Part shown: one piece after another, positions 30,901 through 39,900 of the stretch
How the letters are laid out: every line of letters starts with the position of its first letter
How positions within the stretch are numbered: position 1 is the stretch's first letter
Assembly: GCF_000374485.1 (NCBI RefSeq)
Contig: NZ_KB894498.1
Coordinates: 27,199 to 91,198 of the forward strand
DNA length: 64,000 nucleotides
Direction of reading: 5' to 3'
Source of the DNA: Algicola sagamiensis DSM 14643
GTDB taxonomy: Bacteria; Pseudomonadota; Gammaproteobacteria; Enterobacterales; Alteromonadaceae
Program-made: the position numbers

Positions 30901-33900
30901 CAATGCATACGAGAAGTAAATCTTCTCATCACTACAGTTCAAACAATAAGGAGTAATACTTCATGACTTTATCACCAAGCATGATTTTCGTTGGGATCGG
31001 CGTCGCTGTTGCTGTCGTGCTACTACTATTTCTCACCTCTCGCTATAAAAAAGTAAGAAATGAGGGTGAAGCACTGATCGTCAATGGTGTTGACCGAACA
31101 CGCGCCTCTTTAACGGGTACATTCGTTTGGCCCGTCGTCAATACTGCTGAACACATGGATATTACAAGAAAGAAAATCTCAGTGATCCGTAGCGGTCGAA
31201 AAGATCAGGTCGGCGAAGAATACGAAGGCCTGCATTGCCAAGATAATATCCGCGCTGACCTTAAAGTCGACTTTTATATCGGCGTCAATCACGAAGAAGA
31301 AGACATTGTCCGTGTTGCAAAATTATTTACTGCCTACGGCGCTTCTGATCCAGAAAGACTGCGCGAGCATTTCCAGCCAAAATTCTCTGAAGCGCTCAAG
31401 ACAGCGGTCAAACAATTCGACTTTGAAGAGCTTTTAACGAATCGCAGAACATTCCGAGATGCCGTTGTGAAAGTCATTGGTAGCGAAATGGATGGATTCA
31501 AGATTTATGATGTGGTGATTGATAAAGTAGATCAAACCGCACTGGACGCCCACGATCCGAATAACATATTGGATGTGGAAGGGATCCGCAAAATCTCTGA
31601 AATCACGTCCGTCAAAAACACCCAAACAAACGCGATCCGCCAAGATGAAGAGACGCAAATCAAAAAGAAAAACGTCGAAGCAGAAGCCAACCGTCTCCAG
31701 CTTGATAAGCAAGAGAAGGAAAGTATTGCAAGGACGAATCGTGAAGTCGAAATCATCAAAGCACAGGAGCATGCGCTTGCAGAAGAAAAACGCCAGGAAT
31801 ATGAGCGTGTCACTCAGTTAGCACAACTGGAAACTGAAGAAGAGGTTGCTAAGAAACGCGAAGGTGTTGAGATGGAAGTTGAACTCACACGTACCGCGAA
31901 TCAGCGCCAAATTGCGCTGCAACAAGCTGAACTGGAACGTGCAGTGGAAGCAGAGCGTGTTCGCACAGCAACCCTTGTTGAACAAAAGGAAATGGAAAAA
32001 GAAGCCAGCATTGAAGAGTCCAAAAAAGCAGTTGCAGAAACTCGCTCTCAGCGTGTTGAAATCGAACGTAAAATCGCCCGCGAAGAAGAAGAGACGGAAA
32101 ACTTACGCGCGAATGAGCGTGTCAATCGTAACAAGAAGGTTCGCCTAGTAGAGGCAGAAGCGGAAGCAGAAGCACAACAAATCGAACTCATTGCAACATC
32201 CAGAGCAGAAAAAGAAGCAGCGAAAGAGCGTGCGCATAAACTGCTGATTGAAAACGACACCGACATCAAAATCAAAAACCGTGATGCCGAGAACGAAATT
32301 GAAGTTCGCACTCGGATCGCAGAGGCCGACTTGGCTGCGAAGACACGCCAAGCAGAAGCTGAATTCATCATGAAAGAGAAAGAAGCACAAGCCACGGAAG
32401 TCCTTGCACAAGCAGAAAAAGAACGCATCGGCGCAGTTGGTCTTGCAGAAATTGAAGTCGAACGTGAGCGTGCAAGTGTTGTGAAAGAAATGGGCGAAGC
32501 AGAAGCTGAGAACCTCAAGCTCAAAGCTGAGGCAGAAGCGGAAGCCATCCGTTCGAAAGGGATTGCAGATGCAGAAGCACAACAAGCTCGTTTGGAAGCA
32601 ACCAAAATGCATGATACAGACACGCGCGATCACGACAAATGGGTCATGCAGCTACAACAAGAAAAAGACTTGGAAATGGCTCGTATCGCTGCTCAGCAAG
32701 AAAATGCAAAAGCGCTTGCTCAAGCACTGTCTGAAGCCGATCTCAAACTGTTCGGTGGTGAAGGCTTAGAACAGCTTCGTCATACCATGATCAATACGGT
32801 TGGTTTTGATCACCGATTCAAAGAGTCAGAAGTCTTGTCACCGCTTGTGAAAGACTATATGAATGGCGAGCGCAGTCTTCCTGATGATTTGAAAGACATT
32901 CTTCAAAATCCAGCGCTGAAGTCGGGTGTGCTCAACAATATGGCTTTGGCTTCACTCATGAACTCGGGGAATTCGAAGTTCATGGAAGTCCTCCAACAAG
33001 CCCTAGCGACGCGTGTTGACGCACCAAAAGACAACTAATCAACACACACCCTTACCTTAGAGGGTGTGTCATTTTAGGATGACTGCTGTGACTGAAGAAA
33101 AGAATCAACAAGCAATTGATGAAGCCGTCAGTGAAGGCGGCTCTTATGAGGTTTTAAAATCTCGATTAGCGCAGCAAGGGACGACACTCAAGTCCCTTGC
33201 CAATACATTTAACGAAAAGCGTCAGGAAGCATTCGGCGGCAGTAAGTTCTCTCTCATCGGTAAAGCAAATGTGCAAACCGAGTCACGTTCGATTCCTGTC
33301 GATATGGCGCAAGTTAAAGGACATCTCCTGTTTGGTTATCAGGTCTATGTTGGCTTAAAGTCAACGCCTTCCCTTCAAGATGTTTTTGGCCTGTATACAC
33401 TTCACCAAAGTGACAATACATTTCGCATTGACTCTGTGCCGCTGGAAGGCTCGTTTCTCGATCATGAACAATTCAAGCATGAGCTAAGCGAGTTATTCAC
33501 TTATTATAAAGAAACACGACTGTCCCAAATTTTCCGCCGTGAGAATATGCTCTACCTCGCATTCCAAATTGGGATGCGACCAGAGGATCAAAAGGTATTC
33601 CGTTTTGAGATCACGAATGACGACGTCAATTTTATTGATGGCAATGGACAAGTTGCATTGGATCAATCGGAGCAACATGACTTTGAATGGATAGACACAA
33701 CCCGAGACGATCATGTTGAAGGCGAGCACCCTCATGTGAATATAAAAGACCGCTTATTTGTAGAATGCACGGGCGGCAGCCTCACGATTAAAGTTGAAAA
33801 TAACACCCAGGAAGGCCAAGGTATCTTTGATGAGTCTGTTGAGGATAGTTATCAGACAATTTCAGATGCATCAATCGCCTATGCTGAGCTTGGTGATTTA

Positions 33901-36900: not shown

Positions 36901-39900
36901 CCTGGTTATGGTAAAACGACCTTAATTGAATACGTAGCCCATAAACTTGGTCTGGTGTTTATGAAAATCAATGGTCCATCGCTTGGACATGAAGTCACCT
37001 CACTTGACCCAAATGATGCGCCGGATCAAAATGCGGCAAGAGAGGTAGAAAAGCTCAATCTAGCACTAGAAATGGGTAACAATGTCCTGCTTTATATCGA
37101 TGATATTCAGCACACAAGCGCAGAGTTTCTGCAAAAATTTATCTCACTATGTGACGGCACACGAAGAATCGAAGGCTCGTGGAAAGGCGAAACCAAAACC
37201 TACGACATGCGCAGTAAGAAGTTTGCGGTTGTCATGGCGGGTAACCCTTATACCGAATCAGGCGAAGTATTCAAGATACCCGATATGTTGGCAAACCGTG
37301 CTGATATTTATAATCTCGGGGATATGCTCTCCGATCAAGCCGATGCGTTTGCAATGTCCTTCATCGAAAACTCGCTGACATCAAGTCCAGTTCTTGCTCA
37401 AATGTCAACACGCGATCTGAACGATCTTTATCGCCTTATCGCAATGGCTCAAGGAGAAAATGTCCCGCTTACTGATTTATCTTATCCATATGCCGCTGCG
37501 GAAGTGAATGAGATCACCGCAACTTTGGAGAAACTCTTAAAGATCCAAAAGACTGTCCTCAAAGTGAATCAACAATACATCGCTTCTTCTGCCACTGCAG
37601 ATGAATACCGAGTGGAACCACCGTTTAAGTTGCAAGGCTCTTACCGGAACATGAATAAACTGACAGAAAAAGTGTCAGCAGTCATGACCAATGAGGAGCT
37701 TAATACACTCATTACGGATCATTATCAAGGTGAAGCGCAAACGCTGACATCCGGTACAGAAGAGAATCTGCTCAAACTTGCTGATATTCGTGGTGATATG
37801 ACACCTGCTCAACAGGAACGTTGGCAGGAAATTAAGGAACGATATAGCCGAAAACAGCAGCTGGGAGATGATGACGACCGAGCAGGTCAGATGGTCAACC
37901 AAATGATCCATCTCAACCAATACGTAGGTCGCGCAGTCAAACGCCTAGAAAATATCAAACGGATGAGTGTGAGATCACCAAGTAAAACCTCACCTGAAGT
38001 GAAAAAGCATACAGTGAAACCTGGAAAAACGGTTTTGAAACAACAAAAAAGCAAAACCAGTTCACAAAAAACATCTTAATTGTTGAAAAGAACCTTCTAA
38101 AAAGGCCACTTCCCTGTGGCCTTGCTTCTCCAAGATGAAAAAAGTCTCAATAAAGATCACTCACCGATTAAAGCACGGCCTATCATCGCGCTTGAATACA
38201 TGACGCGTGATGGACCAAATGCACGTGTTGGTTTCCATACATTACTTCTTGCGACCGAAGAAGATGTTTTCACTAAGCTTGGCAAGGCTCGAGTTACTCC
38301 TGATTTTGGTGCAACTGCTTGACCATTCCTGGCTAATTCAATGACCTGCTTTCCGGTTTGGTTTGCTAAATTCTGTGCATAAGAATTCGAAAACCAGGTT
38401 GAGCCTTTAAATAGAGCTGCTCCCCCTTTGCCACTGATGGCAATACGCTGAAAGGGCATTTGCCCATTAAATGCTTGATTCAATGTCCTCGCAACAAACT
38501 TCGGGTGATAGTGAGCAACACTTGATGTTACCCTTAATGTTGTTTGGCCCGATCCTGAAGCAGATGACATCAGACTTGGATTTAAACTTCCTCGAAAGGA
38601 AGCTTGCGCGGCCGCCGTCACTCTAGCACCAGCCACCAGCGAGCCAATACCAGTCACAGCGGAAGCGATACCAAATGCTAGTGCCGCGTAGCCTAAATTC
38701 GCAGAAGCTTCCGGGTTTGATCCAGATACAGCTCCAGATGCAATTCCCAAAGCACCACTGACCGTCCCCGTAACACCAGCTGTTACAACTAAACCGGCCT
38801 TGATTGCCGCTGCCGTCGACATAGCAACCGCGCCAGAAATCAATCCCGCAGATGCTGCAATCCCTGATCCGAGTGTGACGACACCAATCAGTACTGCAAG
38901 AATGCCAAGACCAATTGCGACACCAGCCTGCCAACTTAAATGGCCCGTTGGATCAACAAGATTCACAGGATCGCCTAGGCAGTATTGATACCCATGGACA
39001 CCACCTTCCTTAAATGGACTCAGACTATCTATTTCGAGAAAACGCTTGAGCCGCGGGTGATATGCGCGATAGCCTTCTCCTAAGTGATACAAGCCCGTGA
39101 CGTGATCTTGCACTGCACCCGAAAAGCAGAGTGGATTTTTAAAAATATACATACCTTGAGTACCATTTTCCGCCAAAGAGAACAATGCAGCACTCGTTGG
39201 CATACTGGTACTGATCAAAGCACCCGCTGTTGCCAGCCAGGATGATTTCACGAGAAACTTTCTGCGAGATAAATCTGGTTTGTTTTCAACGGTTGTTCGT
39301 TGATAAACTGCTTGTTTTTTATCAATCACCATGATTAATACTCATTATCACGAACACCGAAATCATCCCAGTCCAGATCGTCATCTGTGTTGTGATCAAT
39401 CAGTTTTAAGTGAACCGAGTTTCCGTACTGATCAAAGACACGAAACTTTTGACGGAAATCATATCGATAGGAATCATCAGAGGTGGTATTCACATAGTGG
39501 CCATCTTGTTTGATTCGGCTACATATATTTCTAGAACCAACACGTGAGCAATGACGCCAATCATCGTAGGTCCCCTTCCCTTGAACAAATTTCACATTGT
39601 CAGTCGATAGAGGGAGGTCAAAGTGGTAATCTTCACGACCTTCTCCTTCGATGTTCCAGATACGAACATAGTCTTTGATAGTTTGACGCTGCACAGAAGG
39701 TTTATAGGGATAAAGGACGAGAGATTTCGCTACTCTACCTCGATTGATAATTGAGTGAAATCCACCGCCAGGACGAAAATAATCCACCGCTCTAAAAGAA
39801 TGTGTTGCTTCTTGTAATGGGTTGTCCCACTCTAGGCCATATACCTTGACATTGTTATCCTTCGGGGTCAGTTGCCAATATCCCACATACCATGTGTCTT

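What the first reader, a model, noticed from the sequence alone, without database searches (positions are those of the whole stretch)
33079..38079. 1667-aa protein: about 1200-residue uncharacterised N-terminal region fused to an AAA_5 ATPase
Walker A (ISPPGYGKTTL, about nt 36897-36925) and Walker B (VLLYIDDIQ, about nt 37084-37110) are present. The ATxNP-like VMAGNPYTESGE motif and a LANRADIY arginine-finger region define a MoxR/McrB/dynein-class AAA+ module near the C-terminus. After it comes a C-terminal domain of about 250 residues and a basic K/S/T-rich tail (KTVLKQQKSKTSSQKTS). The N-terminal 1200 residues contain predicted coiled-coil stretches (around residues 520-760) but no motif I can name. 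There is no signal peptide and no TM.
Basis: seen in the sequence. Interest (0 to 1): 0.6.

Follow-up and report, generated by a model that had tools for sequence, protein, structure and literature searches.

The report
Flotillin-partnered giant AAA+ ATPase (BacE family)
This is a real 1666-residue ATPase gene from a widespread, already catalogued bacterial family (Pfam DUF3686, labelled "DNA repair ATPase" without evidence) that always sits next to a membrane flotillin gene, so it most likely works on a membrane-stress scaffold rather than on DNA.

Summary

The "unnameable" N-terminal 1200 residues are Pfam DUF3686 (E = 2e-154) plus DUF7902. AlphaFold2 (pLDDT 86-89) gives a helix, a roughly 7-bladed beta-propeller and a helical bundle. 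A coiled coil of about 320 residues follows, inferred from sequence only, and then a family-specific middle domain with no detectable homologue.

The protein is 100% identical to "DNA repair ATPase [Algicola sagamiensis]". It is 44% identical over its full length to Pseudomonas aeruginosa PA3728, which I infer to be BacE (PA14_16190).

In 76 of 76 related loci with upstream DNA, spanning at least five phyla, a flotillin-like gene lies upstream on the same strand, adjacent in nearly all. The window has it at 30963-33038, preceded by a BacC-like 3-TM gene at 30090-30704.

Ravi et al. 2024 already described this operon, with PspA, a CesT-like protein and phospholipase D as optional extras. Here it is the abbreviated three-gene form.

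I found no support for DNA repair. The likely role is ATP-driven remodelling of a flotillin/PspA membrane scaffold. That is inferred, not shown. It is a new member of a known but biochemically uncharacterised family.

The parts
30090..30704 (+). BacC-like small membrane protein (204 aa), described in the literature as short NfeD / YqiJ-YuaF type. It has hydrophobic segments at residues 3-39 and about 91-127, and a soluble C-terminal part of about 70 residues.
   Evidence: Hydropathy. It is 26% identical over its full length to the 213-aa gene between PspA and the flotillin gene in P. aeruginosa (E = 6e-15). A homologue lies in the same position in 44 of 80 loci by clustering. My own Pfam and PDB profile searches found nothing. 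The NfeD/YqiJ label therefore rests on PMC13086221 and PMC11237479.
30700..30755 (+). Two stem-loops just after the stop of the 204-aa gene, at the start of an unusually long 258-bp spacer before the flotillin-like gene. No T-run follows.
   Evidence: RNA fold -17.4 kcal/mol, z = -3.4, 0 of 200 shuffles fold as well. In the Vibrio relative L001 the corresponding spacer is only 36 bp.
30963..33038 (+). Flotillin-like SPFH protein (691 aa): N-terminal TM segment (residues 1-29), a conserved domain of about 200 residues, then a long E/A/K-rich coiled coil. Ortholog of P. aeruginosa BacD / PaFlo3 (PA3729).
   Evidence: Upstream on the same strand in 76 of 76 loci with upstream DNA, adjacent in nearly all. 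34% identity over 653 residues to the P. aeruginosa protein (E = 1e-87). Pfam Band_7 hits 5 of 33 orthologs (best E = 1.2e-7) and Flot hits 1. The window protein itself has no Pfam hit.
33079..38079 (+). The DUF3686-AAA+ ATPase gene (1666 aa). It is 40 bp downstream of the flotillin-like gene.
33079..33243 (+). N-terminal long helix (residues 1-55). It probably packs with the helices of residues 423-529 into a bundle.
33244..34338 (+). All-beta domain (residues 56-420), about 27 strands, read as a roughly 7-bladed beta-propeller. This is the core of Pfam DUF3686.
34339..34668 (+). Helical bundle (residues 421-530) that follows the propeller.
34669..35628 (+). Coiled-coil arm of about 320 residues (531-850). 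It contains Pfam DUF7902 (residues 606-688, nt 34894-35142). It was not modelled.
   Evidence: Pfam DUF7902 E = 1.5e-16. Low Pro/Gly content and heptad-type periodicity.
35629..36768 (+). Family-specific middle domain (residues 851-1230): a small beta unit, then an all-helical region, then a short beta unit and a long helix leading into the AAA+ core. Conserved residues in the 44-sequence cross-phylum alignment include G869, F873, E923, R929, E931, R973, G977-Y978-x-x-G981-x-H983-D984-x-D986, R1011 and H1171.
36769..37323 (+). AAA+ core (residues 1231-1415).
- Walker A: nt 36892-36924.
- Walker B hhhhDD: nt 37084-37110.
- Beta-hairpin inserted before sensor 1: residues about 1363-1376, nt 37165-37206, with invariant or near-invariant G1366, W1368, G1370, Y1375 and D1376.
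- Sensor-1 motif AGNPYTE: within nt 37231-37266.
- Arg finger in ANRAD: within nt 37288-37311.
   Evidence: This is the most conserved part: 83% mean identity among gammaproteobacterial relatives. Residues 1225-1600 are at least 59% identical across phyla.
37324..37971 (+). Lid and C-terminal helical domain (residues 1416-1631), with the near-invariant block EPPFKLQGSYRNM.
37972..38076 (+). Disordered, basic, K/S/T-rich tail (residues 1632-1666). It is not conserved in relatives.
   Evidence: pLDDT < 50. 16% identity for residues 1591-1666. Composition.

Best explanation
The gene encodes the Algicola sagamiensis member of the DUF3686-AAA+ family. In P. aeruginosa this family corresponds to BacE (PA3728 / PA14_16190).

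It is the cytoplasmic ATPase of a conserved three-gene membrane module:
- a small 3-TM BacC-type protein (called NfeD/YqiJ-like in the literature),
- a membrane-anchored flotillin-like SPFH protein,
- this ATPase.

In other bacteria the module is extended by a PspA homologue, a CesT-like chaperone (YjfI/DUF2170) and sometimes a phospholipase-D-family enzyme.

Proposed mechanism:
1. The MoxR/dynein-class AAA+ domains form a ring.
2. Each subunit carries a coiled-coil arm of about 320 residues, ending in a helical bundle and a beta-propeller.
3. The propeller heads dock onto the flotillin assembly on the inner face of the cytoplasmic membrane, or onto proteins held by it.
4. ATP binding and hydrolysis assemble, remodel or take apart that scaffold during membrane stress.

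Shown here: family membership, domain layout, AAA+ class, and strict gene linkage to the flotillin gene.

Shown by others in P. aeruginosa: co-transcription and co-regulation of the operon, its induction by phage infection, and biofilm/virulence phenotypes of bacA and bacB mutants.

Inferred and untested: ring formation, physical contact with flotillin, and the remodelling activity. The database name "DNA repair ATPase" has no support.
For: **Family.**
- Pfam DUF3686 E = 2e-154, plus DUF7902, AAA and AAA_5.
- 100% identity to a deposited A. sagamiensis protein.
- 44% identity over 1642 residues to the P. aeruginosa protein P0258.

**Linkage.**
- The flotillin-like gene lies upstream on the same strand in 76 of 76 loci that have upstream DNA. 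In nearly all it is directly adjacent. In 3 loci, 2-6 kb of other DNA intervenes. The four loci without it are cut at the contig end.
- These loci span Gamma- and Betaproteobacteria, Zetaproteobacteria, Myxococcota, Actinomycetota, Acidobacteriota and Planctomycetota.
- The BacC-like gene is found in 44 of 80 loci by clustering.
- In the window, only 40 bp separate the flotillin-like gene from the ATPase gene.

**Extended operon.**
- The P. aeruginosa locus reads DUF2170, PspA_IM30, a 213-aa gene, a 688-aa gene, the ATPase, PLDc_2, YaeQ, RecJ.
- This matches the six-gene bacABCDEF operon of PMC10948618.
- DUF2170 plus PspA lie upstream in 16-17 of my 80 loci, PLD downstream in 10 and a rhomboid in 7.

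**Literature.**
- PMC11237479 describes exactly this operon and its abbreviated forms, and proposes ATP-dependent membrane remodelling or a chaperone role.
- PMC10948618 shows by RT-PCR that bacA to bacF are co-transcribed. BacB to BacF proteins rise 6- to 13-fold in a bacA mutant.
- PMC12041424 reports PA3728-PA3732 up-regulated in all phage-infected samples.

**ATPase class.**
- All nucleotide-site residues are invariant.
- The AAA+ and C-terminal part is at least 59% identical across phyla. That indicates strong selection on a working motor.

**Architecture.**
- Both models are confident: pLDDT 88.9 and 86.3.
- Among the best 150 of 622 library representatives, the N-terminal module is seen only at the start of proteins of about 1550-2040 aa or in shorter chains that are probably fragments.
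- The protein has no TM segment, whereas both partners do.
Against: - There is no direct evidence of an interaction between this ATPase and flotillin, of oligomerisation, or of ATPase activity in any species.
- The window and most loci lack PspA, so a PspA-centred mechanism cannot be general.
- Walker B is DD, not the usual DE, in every family member. Hydrolysis may therefore be slow or switch-like rather than motor-like.
- MoxR ATPases normally work with a VWA partner. I saw none among the conserved neighbour gene clusters.
- The conserved His/Asp/Glu/Arg residues of the middle domain could form a catalytic site that this model does not explain.
- A recent study reported no pronounced phenotypes for P. 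aeruginosa SPFH deletions, PaFlo3 among the genes studied (PMC13086221).
- My own profile searches could not tie the window's two partner proteins to SPFH or NfeD structures. The SPFH assignment rests on Pfam Band_7 hits in 5 of 33 orthologs and on published annotation.
Confidence: 0.55

Rival explanations
1. It is what the databases call it: an ATPase that acts in DNA repair, for example as an SMC- or Rad50-like coiled-coil protein that binds DNA through its basic tail.
For: - The NCBI and UniRef name is "DNA repair ATPase", and the Pfam DUF3686 descriptor reads "ATPase involved in DNA repair".
- It has a long coiled coil and a basic C-terminal tail.
- There are weak RuvB P-loop hits, E about 1e-3.
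- recJ lies three genes downstream in P. aeruginosa, and recN is elsewhere in the window.
Against: - No nuclease, helicase or DNA-binding domain was found by Pfam, NCBIfam, PDB sequence search or fold search.
- The RuvB hits cover only the P-loop, about 45 residues, and lie far below the curated cut-offs (18 bits against 282).
- The ATPase is AAA+, not an SMC/ABC-type head.
- The basic tail is not conserved.
- The invariant neighbours are membrane proteins.
- I found no paper giving any experimental basis for the name.
Confidence: 0.04
2. It is the motor of an anti-phage or inter-bacterial conflict system. The propeller senses an invader or membrane damage, and the ATPase then activates an effector, such as the phospholipase-D-family protein seen in some loci. 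The outcome would be abortive infection.
For: - PA3728-PA3732 are induced by infection with two lytic phages (PMC12041424).
- A PLD/HKD-family gene follows the ATPase in 10 of 80 loci and in P. aeruginosa.
- The window gene lies next to an Rhs toxin locus.
- A large NTPase with a repeat-type sensor domain is a common defence architecture (general knowledge).
Against: - No PADLOC model hits the ATPase or its neighbours.
- The family is unusually well conserved for a defence gene: at least 59% identity in the ATPase part across phyla.
- All 24 contigs read that carry this exact P. aeruginosa protein show one and the same chromosomal neighbourhood; its 90% cluster holds 3222 member sequences.
- Most loci, this window included, carry no candidate effector.
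- Induction by phage is equally expected of a phage-shock-type membrane stress response.
Confidence: 0.1
3. It is a conventional MoxR-type chaperone that matures or inserts a cofactor into a specific membrane enzyme. Flotillin would serve only as a platform, and the ATPase would not act on the flotillin scaffold itself.
For: - The closest solved structures are CbbQ and NorQ, MoxR ATPases that remodel Rubisco and nitric oxide reductase.
- Pfam AAA_5 scores above its cut-off.
Against: - I saw no VWA/MIDAS partner gene and no conserved client-enzyme gene among the conserved neighbour clusters.
- The only invariant neighbour is the flotillin-like gene.
- The 1230-residue N-terminal extension has no counterpart in known MoxR proteins.
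Confidence: 0.15

Closest known systems
P. aeruginosa BacE (PA3728 / PA14_16190) of the bacABCDEF "biofilm-associated cluster" operon (PMC10948618; PMC2587700)
   Same: - Full-length ortholog: 44% identity over 1642 residues, with the same Pfam domains.
- The same upstream partners: flotillin-like BacD at 34% identity and 3-TM BacC at 26%.
   Different: - The window operon lacks bacA (DUF2170/YjfI), bacB (PspA) and bacF (PLD).
- I found no sigma-54 -24/-12 site upstream of the first gene. One is proposed for bacA in P. aeruginosa.
- Equating P0258 with PA3728/PA14_16190 rests on gene order and on PAO1 locus numbers recalled from memory. It is not an accession match.
- BacE itself has never been studied biochemically, so orthology transfers context but not function.
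[quoted passage not shown] 2024, mSystems, PMC11237479)
   Same: - The same protein family and operon.
- That paper explicitly notes abbreviated operons holding only the flotillin protein, the YqiJ/YuaF protein and this ATPase, which is the arrangement in the window.
   Different: That description is purely computational and brief. It does not mention the middle domain (residues 851-1230), the DD Walker B, the hairpin before sensor 1, or the MoxR/dynein structural affinity found here.
MoxR-class AAA+ ATPases (CbbQ, NorQ, RavA) and the related dynein/midasin AAA modules (Pfam AAA_5)
   Same: - The motif NP-x-x-E-x-G-x-x-x-x-I-P-x-x-L-x-N-R is shared.
- A beta-hairpin inserted before sensor 1 is predicted.
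   Different: - Only 13-16% sequence identity.
- Walker B is DD rather than DE.
- The model shows no clear helix-2 beta-insert.
- No VWA partner was seen.
- The protein carries about 1230 extra N-terminal residues and about 215 extra C-terminal ordered residues.
Vps4 with ESCRT-III, and more generally AAA+ disassembly machines for membrane-bound polymers
   Same: - This is a functional analogy only: a soluble AAA+ ATPase genetically coupled to a membrane-scaffolding polymer.
- In the extended operons that coupling includes PspA. Ravi et al. compare PspA-AAA+ pairings with Snf7-Vps4.
   Different: - The invariant partner is an SPFH protein, not an ESCRT-III protein.
E. coli YqiJ-YqiK and B. subtilis YuaF-FloT flotillin operons
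   Same: According to PMC11237479, these have the same two-gene membrane core: a small multi-TM NfeD/YqiJ-type protein followed by a TM-SPFH-coiled-coil flotillin.
   Different: - Those operons carry no AAA+ ATPase. This comes from that paper and general knowledge and was not tested here.
- The window's flotillin-like protein is too divergent for Pfam Band_7 to detect directly.

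Membership tests
Pfam DUF3686 (PF12458) / DUF3686-AAA+ "DNA repair ATPase" family | Significant match to the DUF3686 profile over its full length | tested here: met
   E = 2.1e-154, 514.7 bits against a cut-off of 25. Residues 37-485 match profile positions 2-448 of 448.
Pfam DUF3686 (PF12458) / DUF3686-AAA+ "DNA repair ATPase" family | Full-length collinear architecture: DUF3686, DUF7902, then a C-terminal AAA domain, about 1600-1900 aa in total | tested here: met
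   The same Pfam set appears in nearly all listed homologues, with 93-100% query coverage in nearly all of them. Alignments A1-A3 are collinear.
AAA+ ATPase superfamily | Walker A GxxGxGK[ST] | tested here: met
   PPGYGKTT at residues 1274-1281, invariant.
AAA+ ATPase superfamily | Walker B hhhhDE with a catalytic Glu | tested here: inconclusive
   The motif is LLYIDD, with D1341 and D1342 invariant, so Asp replaces the catalytic Glu in every member. From memory, DnaA has a similar DDIQ Walker B and hydrolyses ATP slowly. Activity was not tested.
AAA+ ATPase superfamily | Sensor-1 polar residue after beta-4 and an arginine finger at the end of alpha-4 | tested here: met
   N1389 and R1407 are invariant. 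Their positions agree with strand 532-538 and helix 552-557 of the model.
MoxR / AAA_5 (dynein-related) class | Pfam AAA_5 match above the gathering score | tested here: met
   28.6 bits against 22, residues 1269-1396.
MoxR / AAA_5 (dynein-related) class | Closest structural neighbours are MoxR, dynein or midasin modules | tested here: met
   [not shown]
MoxR / AAA_5 (dynein-related) class | Beta-hairpin inserts in helix 2 and before sensor 1 | tested here: inconclusive
   The model shows a hairpin before sensor 1 (model strands 513-518 and 521-526). The segment between beta-2 and alpha-2 shows no beta-hairpin. This is read from DSSP only, because the coordinates were not inspected.
MoxR / AAA_5 (dynein-related) class | A VWA/MIDAS-domain partner encoded nearby | tested here: not met
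   No VWA family appears among the conserved neighbour clusters or in the window neighbours tested. Only the most frequent neighbour clusters were scanned with Pfam.
PspA-flotillin-AAA+ operon of Ravi et al. 2024 / P. aeruginosa bac operon | [quoted passage not shown] | tested here: met
   Window 30963-33038. Present in 76 of 76 loci with upstream DNA. Ortholog of PaFlo3/BacD. Band_7 hits in 5 of 33 orthologs.
PspA-flotillin-AAA+ operon of Ravi et al. 2024 / P. aeruginosa bac operon | 3-TM YqiJ/YuaF-type (short NfeD) gene | tested here: inconclusive
   Window 30090-30704 is an ortholog of the P. aeruginosa gene in the BacC position and has the expected hydropathy. No profile match to NfeD or YqiJ families was obtained.
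PspA-flotillin-AAA+ operon of Ravi et al. 2024 / P. aeruginosa bac operon | CesT-like (DUF2170/YjfI) plus PspA dyad upstream, and PLD downstream | tested here: not met
   tblastn with the P. aeruginosa proteins finds none of them in the 64-kb window. This is therefore the abbreviated form that the paper also describes.
DNA repair ATPases (SMC/Rad50/RecN/RuvB-like) | A recognisable DNA-binding, nuclease or helicase domain, or an ABC-type SMC head | tested here: not met
   None was found by Pfam, NCBIfam, PDB sequence or fold searches. The RuvB hits are P-loop only, at 18 bits against a cut-off of 282.
Known anti-phage defence systems | Match to a PADLOC model | tested here: not met
   No hit at E <= 0.01 for the ATPase, either partner or the three downstream ORFs.

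The most novel reading that the evidence does not exclude
BacE-family proteins are a dedicated, dynein/midasin-like mechanochemical remodeller of bacterial flotillin cages. A ring of AAA_5-type modules would use long coiled-coil arms tipped with beta-propellers to grip the SPFH scaffold, and would open, close or extract it in response to membrane damage. The invariant His/Asp-rich middle domain might add a still unknown catalytic or metal-dependent step. If so, this would be the first known ATP-driven machine acting on an SPFH/flotillin assembly. It would give bacterial flotillins, whose function is long debated, a testable energy-dependent cycle.
Probability: 0.35. Interest if true: 0.7.

Novelty: new member of a known kind. 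Interest (0 to 1): 0.38.

Why it matters
What bacterial flotillins do, and how their large membrane assemblies are regulated, remains an open question. A huge ATPase that is strongly conserved across phyla (at least 59% identity in its motor part) and genetically locked to one flotillin subfamily is the obvious handle on that question. No member has been studied biochemically.

The present database name, "DNA repair ATPase", is propagated across thousands of genomes and is probably misleading. Correcting it would redirect experiments towards membrane stress, phage shock and biofilm biology. In P. aeruginosa the operon is linked to biofilm formation, rhamnolipid secretion, virulence and the response to phage infection.

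For this particular window, however, the finding adds nothing beyond one more ordinary chromosomal member of the family, in its minimal three-gene form.

Tried and rejected
1. **Sequence searches for the N-terminal and middle regions.**
   - phmmer of the full protein against PDB gave only P-loop hits.
   - A 44-sequence profile of residues 851-1230 gave nothing against PDB and only scattered single hits against Pfam.
2. **Fold searches.**
   - The afdb50 library was not available.
3. **Independent confirmation of the partners.**
   - PDB profile searches with the full flotillin-like alignment and with its N-terminal 250 residues found nothing.
   - The window protein has no Pfam hit even at E <= 10.
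   - The BacC-like alignment hit nothing in Pfam or PDB.
4. **Defence-system idea.** PADLOC was negative.
5. **Sigma-54 promoter, as proposed for P. aeruginosa bacA.** There is no plus-strand match with 2 or fewer mismatches in the 29792-30089 spacer, and window-wide counts are at chance level. The sigma-70 and terminator scans were also at or near chance.
6. **Literature.**
   - Searches for DUF3686, PF12458 and "DNA repair ATPase" with flotillin found no papers.
   - The eLife Arc paper mentions PA3729 only as an abundant background protein.
7. **Other architectures for the propeller module.** The 1.84-billion-protein scan showed none among the best 150 hits. Shorter hits look like fragments.

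Full report
**1. The observation**

The ORF is real. It runs from ATG 33079 to the stop at 38077-38079 on the + strand, giving 1666 residues. Alternative starts are GTG 33064 and GTG 33088. The deposited protein, 100% identical and 1663 aa, implies the last of these.

- Walker A at residue 1272 (nt 36892-36924).
- Walker B at residue 1336 (nt 37084-37110).
- VMAGNPYTESGE at residue 1385.
- LANRADIY at residue 1404.
- The K/S/T-rich tail at residue 1650.

No hydrophobic segment reaches TM strength; the maximum 19-residue Kyte-Doolittle mean is 1.15.

**2. What the protein is**

Pfam places residues 37-485 in DUF3686 (E = 2.1e-154, descriptor "ATPase involved in DNA repair"). Residues 606-688 fall in DUF7902. 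Residues 1269-1396 match AAA and AAA_5, both above their gathering scores. NCBIfam and PDB sequence searches add only weak P-loop matches to RuvB and p97.

The protein is identical to "DNA repair ATPase [Algicola sagamiensis]". Thousands of collinear full-length homologues of about 1600-1900 aa carry the same name.

The 80 loci kept span Gamma-, Beta- and Zetaproteobacteria, Myxococcota, Actinomycetota, Acidobacteriota and Planctomycetota.

A full HMMER scan of 1.84 billion representatives with residues 1-530 found 622 clusters at 50% identity. Among the best 150, the module sits at the start of proteins of about 1550-2040 aa or in shorter chains that are probably fragments. The module therefore appears essentially confined to this one architecture.

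**3. Anatomy**

AlphaFold2 on a 48-sequence alignment gave confident models for residues 1-530 (pLDDT 88.9) and 851-1666 (pLDDT 86.3). In order, the protein contains:

- **Helix, residues 2-52.**
- **Coiled coil, residues about 531-850.** It includes DUF7902. This part was not modelled and is inferred from composition and periodicity.
- **Middle domain, residues 851-1230.** It has a small beta unit and many helices.
  - Cross-phylum invariant residues include E923, R929, E931, G977-Y978, G981, H983-D984-x-D986, R1011 and H1171.
  - It has no Pfam, PDB-sequence or listed structural homologue.
- **AAA+ core, residues 1231-1415.**
- **Lid and helical C-terminal domain, to about residue 1631.** It contains the near-invariant block EPPFKLQGSYRNM.
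- **Basic tail.** It is disordered and not conserved.

Conservation is highest in the AAA+ core, at 83% among gammaproteobacterial relatives. The region 1225-1600 is at least 59% identical even to actinobacterial and myxobacterial proteins, although the whole proteins are only about 40% identical.

**4. Class of the ATPase**

The sensor-1 region, AGNPYTESGEVFKIPDMLANRAD, has the NP..E.G....P..L..R pattern typical of this class. The model shows a beta-hairpin inserted before sensor 1, with invariant or near-invariant G1366, W1368, G1370, Y1375 and D1376. A helix-2 insert is not evident.

A family profile against PDB sequences matches only the region around Walker A, best to classical AAA proteins (Rix7, p97) at E about 1e-5. 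The family is therefore a distinct lineage rather than a member of any characterised subfamily.

Walker B is DD in every member. From memory, DnaA shares a DDIQ Walker B and is a slow, switch-like ATPase. That is a lead and was not tested.

**5.

Two genes lie directly upstream on the same strand.

- **A 691-aa protein (30963-33038), ending 40 bp before the ATPase gene.** It has an N-terminal TM segment, a conserved domain of about 200 residues and a long E/A/K-rich coiled coil.
- **A 204-aa protein (30090-30704).** It has hydrophobic segments at residues 3-39 and about 91-127 and a soluble C-terminal part.

In the 80 related loci, a homologue of the 691-aa protein lies upstream on the same strand in 76. 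The other four loci are cut at the contig end, so the count is 76 of 76 informative loci. Most gaps are under about 200 bp. A dozen or so are 200-950 bp, and three are 2-6 kb. The 204-aa family is detected in 44 loci by clustering.

Pfam Band_7 hits 5 of 33 orthologs of the 691-aa protein (best E = 1.2e-7), and Flot hits one. The window copy is too divergent for a direct hit. PDB profile searches were also empty.

Some loci carry additional genes:
- DUF2170 (YjfI) plus a PspA-family gene upstream, in 16-17 loci.
- A PLD-family gene downstream, in 10 loci.
- A rhomboid gene downstream, in 7 loci.

None of these is present in the window.

**6. What is already known**

Ravi et al. 2024 (PMC11237479) describe exactly this operon. 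Its components are:
- a CesT/Tir-like protein and PspA;
[quoted passage not shown] - a 3-TM protein of the YqiJ/YuaF type;
- sometimes a phospholipase D.

They note that abbreviated operons without PspA are more widespread. [quoted passage not shown]

The P. aeruginosa ortholog (P0258, 44% identical over 1642 residues) lies in the gene order DUF2170, PspA, a 213-aa gene, a 688-aa gene, the ATPase, PLDc_2, YaeQ, RecJ. This matches the six-gene bacABCDEF operon, PA14_16140 to PA14_16200. I infer that the ATPase is BacE (PA14_16190, PA3728). The PAO1 locus numbers are partly from memory.

Published findings on that operon:
- It is co-transcribed.
- A sigma-54 site is proposed for its promoter.
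- BacB to BacF proteins rise 6- to 13-fold in a bacA mutant.
- bacA and bacB mutants are impaired in biofilm formation, rhamnolipid secretion and virulence (PMC10948618).
- PA3728-PA3732 are induced by lytic phage infection (PMC12041424).
- PA14_16190 is among the RsmA-regulated proteins (PMC8855297).
- PaFlo3 (PA14_16180) and the short NfeD protein PA14_16160 are described as an SPFH-NfeD pair. SPFH deletions gave no pronounced phenotypes (PMC13086221).

None of the papers I found reports a biochemical study of the ATPase itself.

**7. Most likely mechanism**

The protein is soluble, and both invariant partners are membrane proteins. The motor is of the class that remodels protein complexes. 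The N-terminal propeller and bundle sit at the end of a long coiled-coil arm and occur nowhere else.

The best-supported reading is a ring-forming AAA+ remodeller. Its propeller heads would engage the flotillin assembly, or proteins held in it, at the inner face of the membrane. It would drive assembly, disassembly or remodelling during membrane stress. Where PspA is present, the two would work together.

The gene linkage and the domain layout are shown here. Co-expression and stress induction are shown by others. Ring formation, flotillin binding and remodelling are inferred.

Points that do not fit neatly are the DD Walker B, the absence of a VWA partner and the conserved His/Asp/Arg/Glu residues of the middle domain, which might form an active site.

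**8. Rivals**

- **DNA repair (about 0.04).** This rests only on inherited names and a coiled coil. No DNA-related domain was found.
- **Anti-phage or conflict system (about 0.1).** It is suggested by phage induction, the PLD neighbour in some loci and the Rhs locus next door. Against it are the negative PADLOC scan, the very high conservation and the lack of any effector in most loci. In addition, all 24 P. aeruginosa contigs read show the same neighbourhood.
- **Conventional MoxR chaperone for a client enzyme (about 0.15).** It fits the fold, but there is no VWA partner or client gene.

**9. Verdict**

The AAA_5 call is correct. The claim that the N-terminal region is unnameable is out of date, because it is DUF3686 plus DUF7902: a beta-propeller, a helical bundle and a coiled coil.

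The gene is an ordinary chromosomal member, in the minimal three-gene form, of a family that is already catalogued and has been discussed computationally. Its biochemical function is still unknown, and its database name is probably wrong. The novelty of this finding is low. The family itself remains a worthwhile experimental target.

Noticed in passing
window 38157-44474 (- strand): An Rhs-family toxin locus lies convergent with the ATPase gene and is split into three ORFs. The first is 1243 aa with RHS repeats (40743-44474). The second is 410 aa with no Pfam hit (39335-40567). The third is 391 aa and carries the Rhs-associated core at residues 63-130, followed by an unassigned C-terminal region of about 260 residues (38157-39332). 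The last two ORFs are 2 nt apart in different frames. Only 77 bp separate the Rhs end from the ATPase stop, which leaves no room for a downstream immunity gene. This suggests a frameshifted or degenerate Rhs gene.
   Followed up: partly
window 30700-30962: The spacer between the 204-aa gene and the flotillin-like gene is unusually long at 258 bp, against 36 bp in the Vibrio relative L001. It begins with two stable stem-loops (-17.4 kcal/mol, z = -3.4) and has no T-run. It could be an internal regulatory element or a separate promoter for the flotillin-ATPase pair.
   Followed up: partly
window 35629-36768 (ATPase residues 851-1230): The middle domain has cross-phylum invariant polar residues: E923, R929, E931, the motif G-Y-x-x-G-x-H-D-x-D at 977-986, R1011 and H1171. 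It has no detectable homologue by sequence or in the listed fold hits. It could be an undescribed catalytic or metal-binding site.
   Followed up: partly
window 37099-37104 (ATPase D1341-D1342): Walker B is DD rather than DE in every family member examined, so the catalytic Glu is replaced by Asp. This may mean slow, switch-like ATP hydrolysis.
   Followed up: no
L008, L017, L018, L029, L058, L061, L063, L075 (between the flotillin-like and ATPase genes): In several Pseudomonas, Lysobacter and betaproteobacterial loci the flotillin-ATPase gap is 400-950 bp instead of under about 150 bp. In L022, L023 and L077 it is 2-6 kb. Part of this may come from my ORF start calls, but a small extra gene or inserted genes are possible.
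   Followed up: no
related loci, e.g. L008:13223-13789: A rhomboid-family intramembrane protease gene follows the ATPase gene on the same strand in 6-7 of 80 loci. This neighbour does not appear in the passages of the published operon description that I read.
   Followed up: partly
window 33064-33090: The start codon is ambiguous among GTG 33064, ATG 33079 and GTG 33088. The deposited 1663-aa protein implies GTG 33088, which has an AGGA 9 nt upstream.
   Followed up: partly
window 19841-29791 and 45717-56299: The surrounding genes look like ordinary chromosomal housekeeping genes. They include a RecN-like SMC_N protein (19841-21523), a DeaD RNA helicase (22320-24032), a methyl-accepting chemotaxis protein (25655-27592), DUF6580 (27735-28283, - strand) and an NDH-2-like flavoprotein (28496-29791). 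Further along are DUF3530, an SNF-family transporter and LptD (54002-56299). Apart from the Rhs locus, nothing suggests a mobile element or a defence island.
   Followed up: partly
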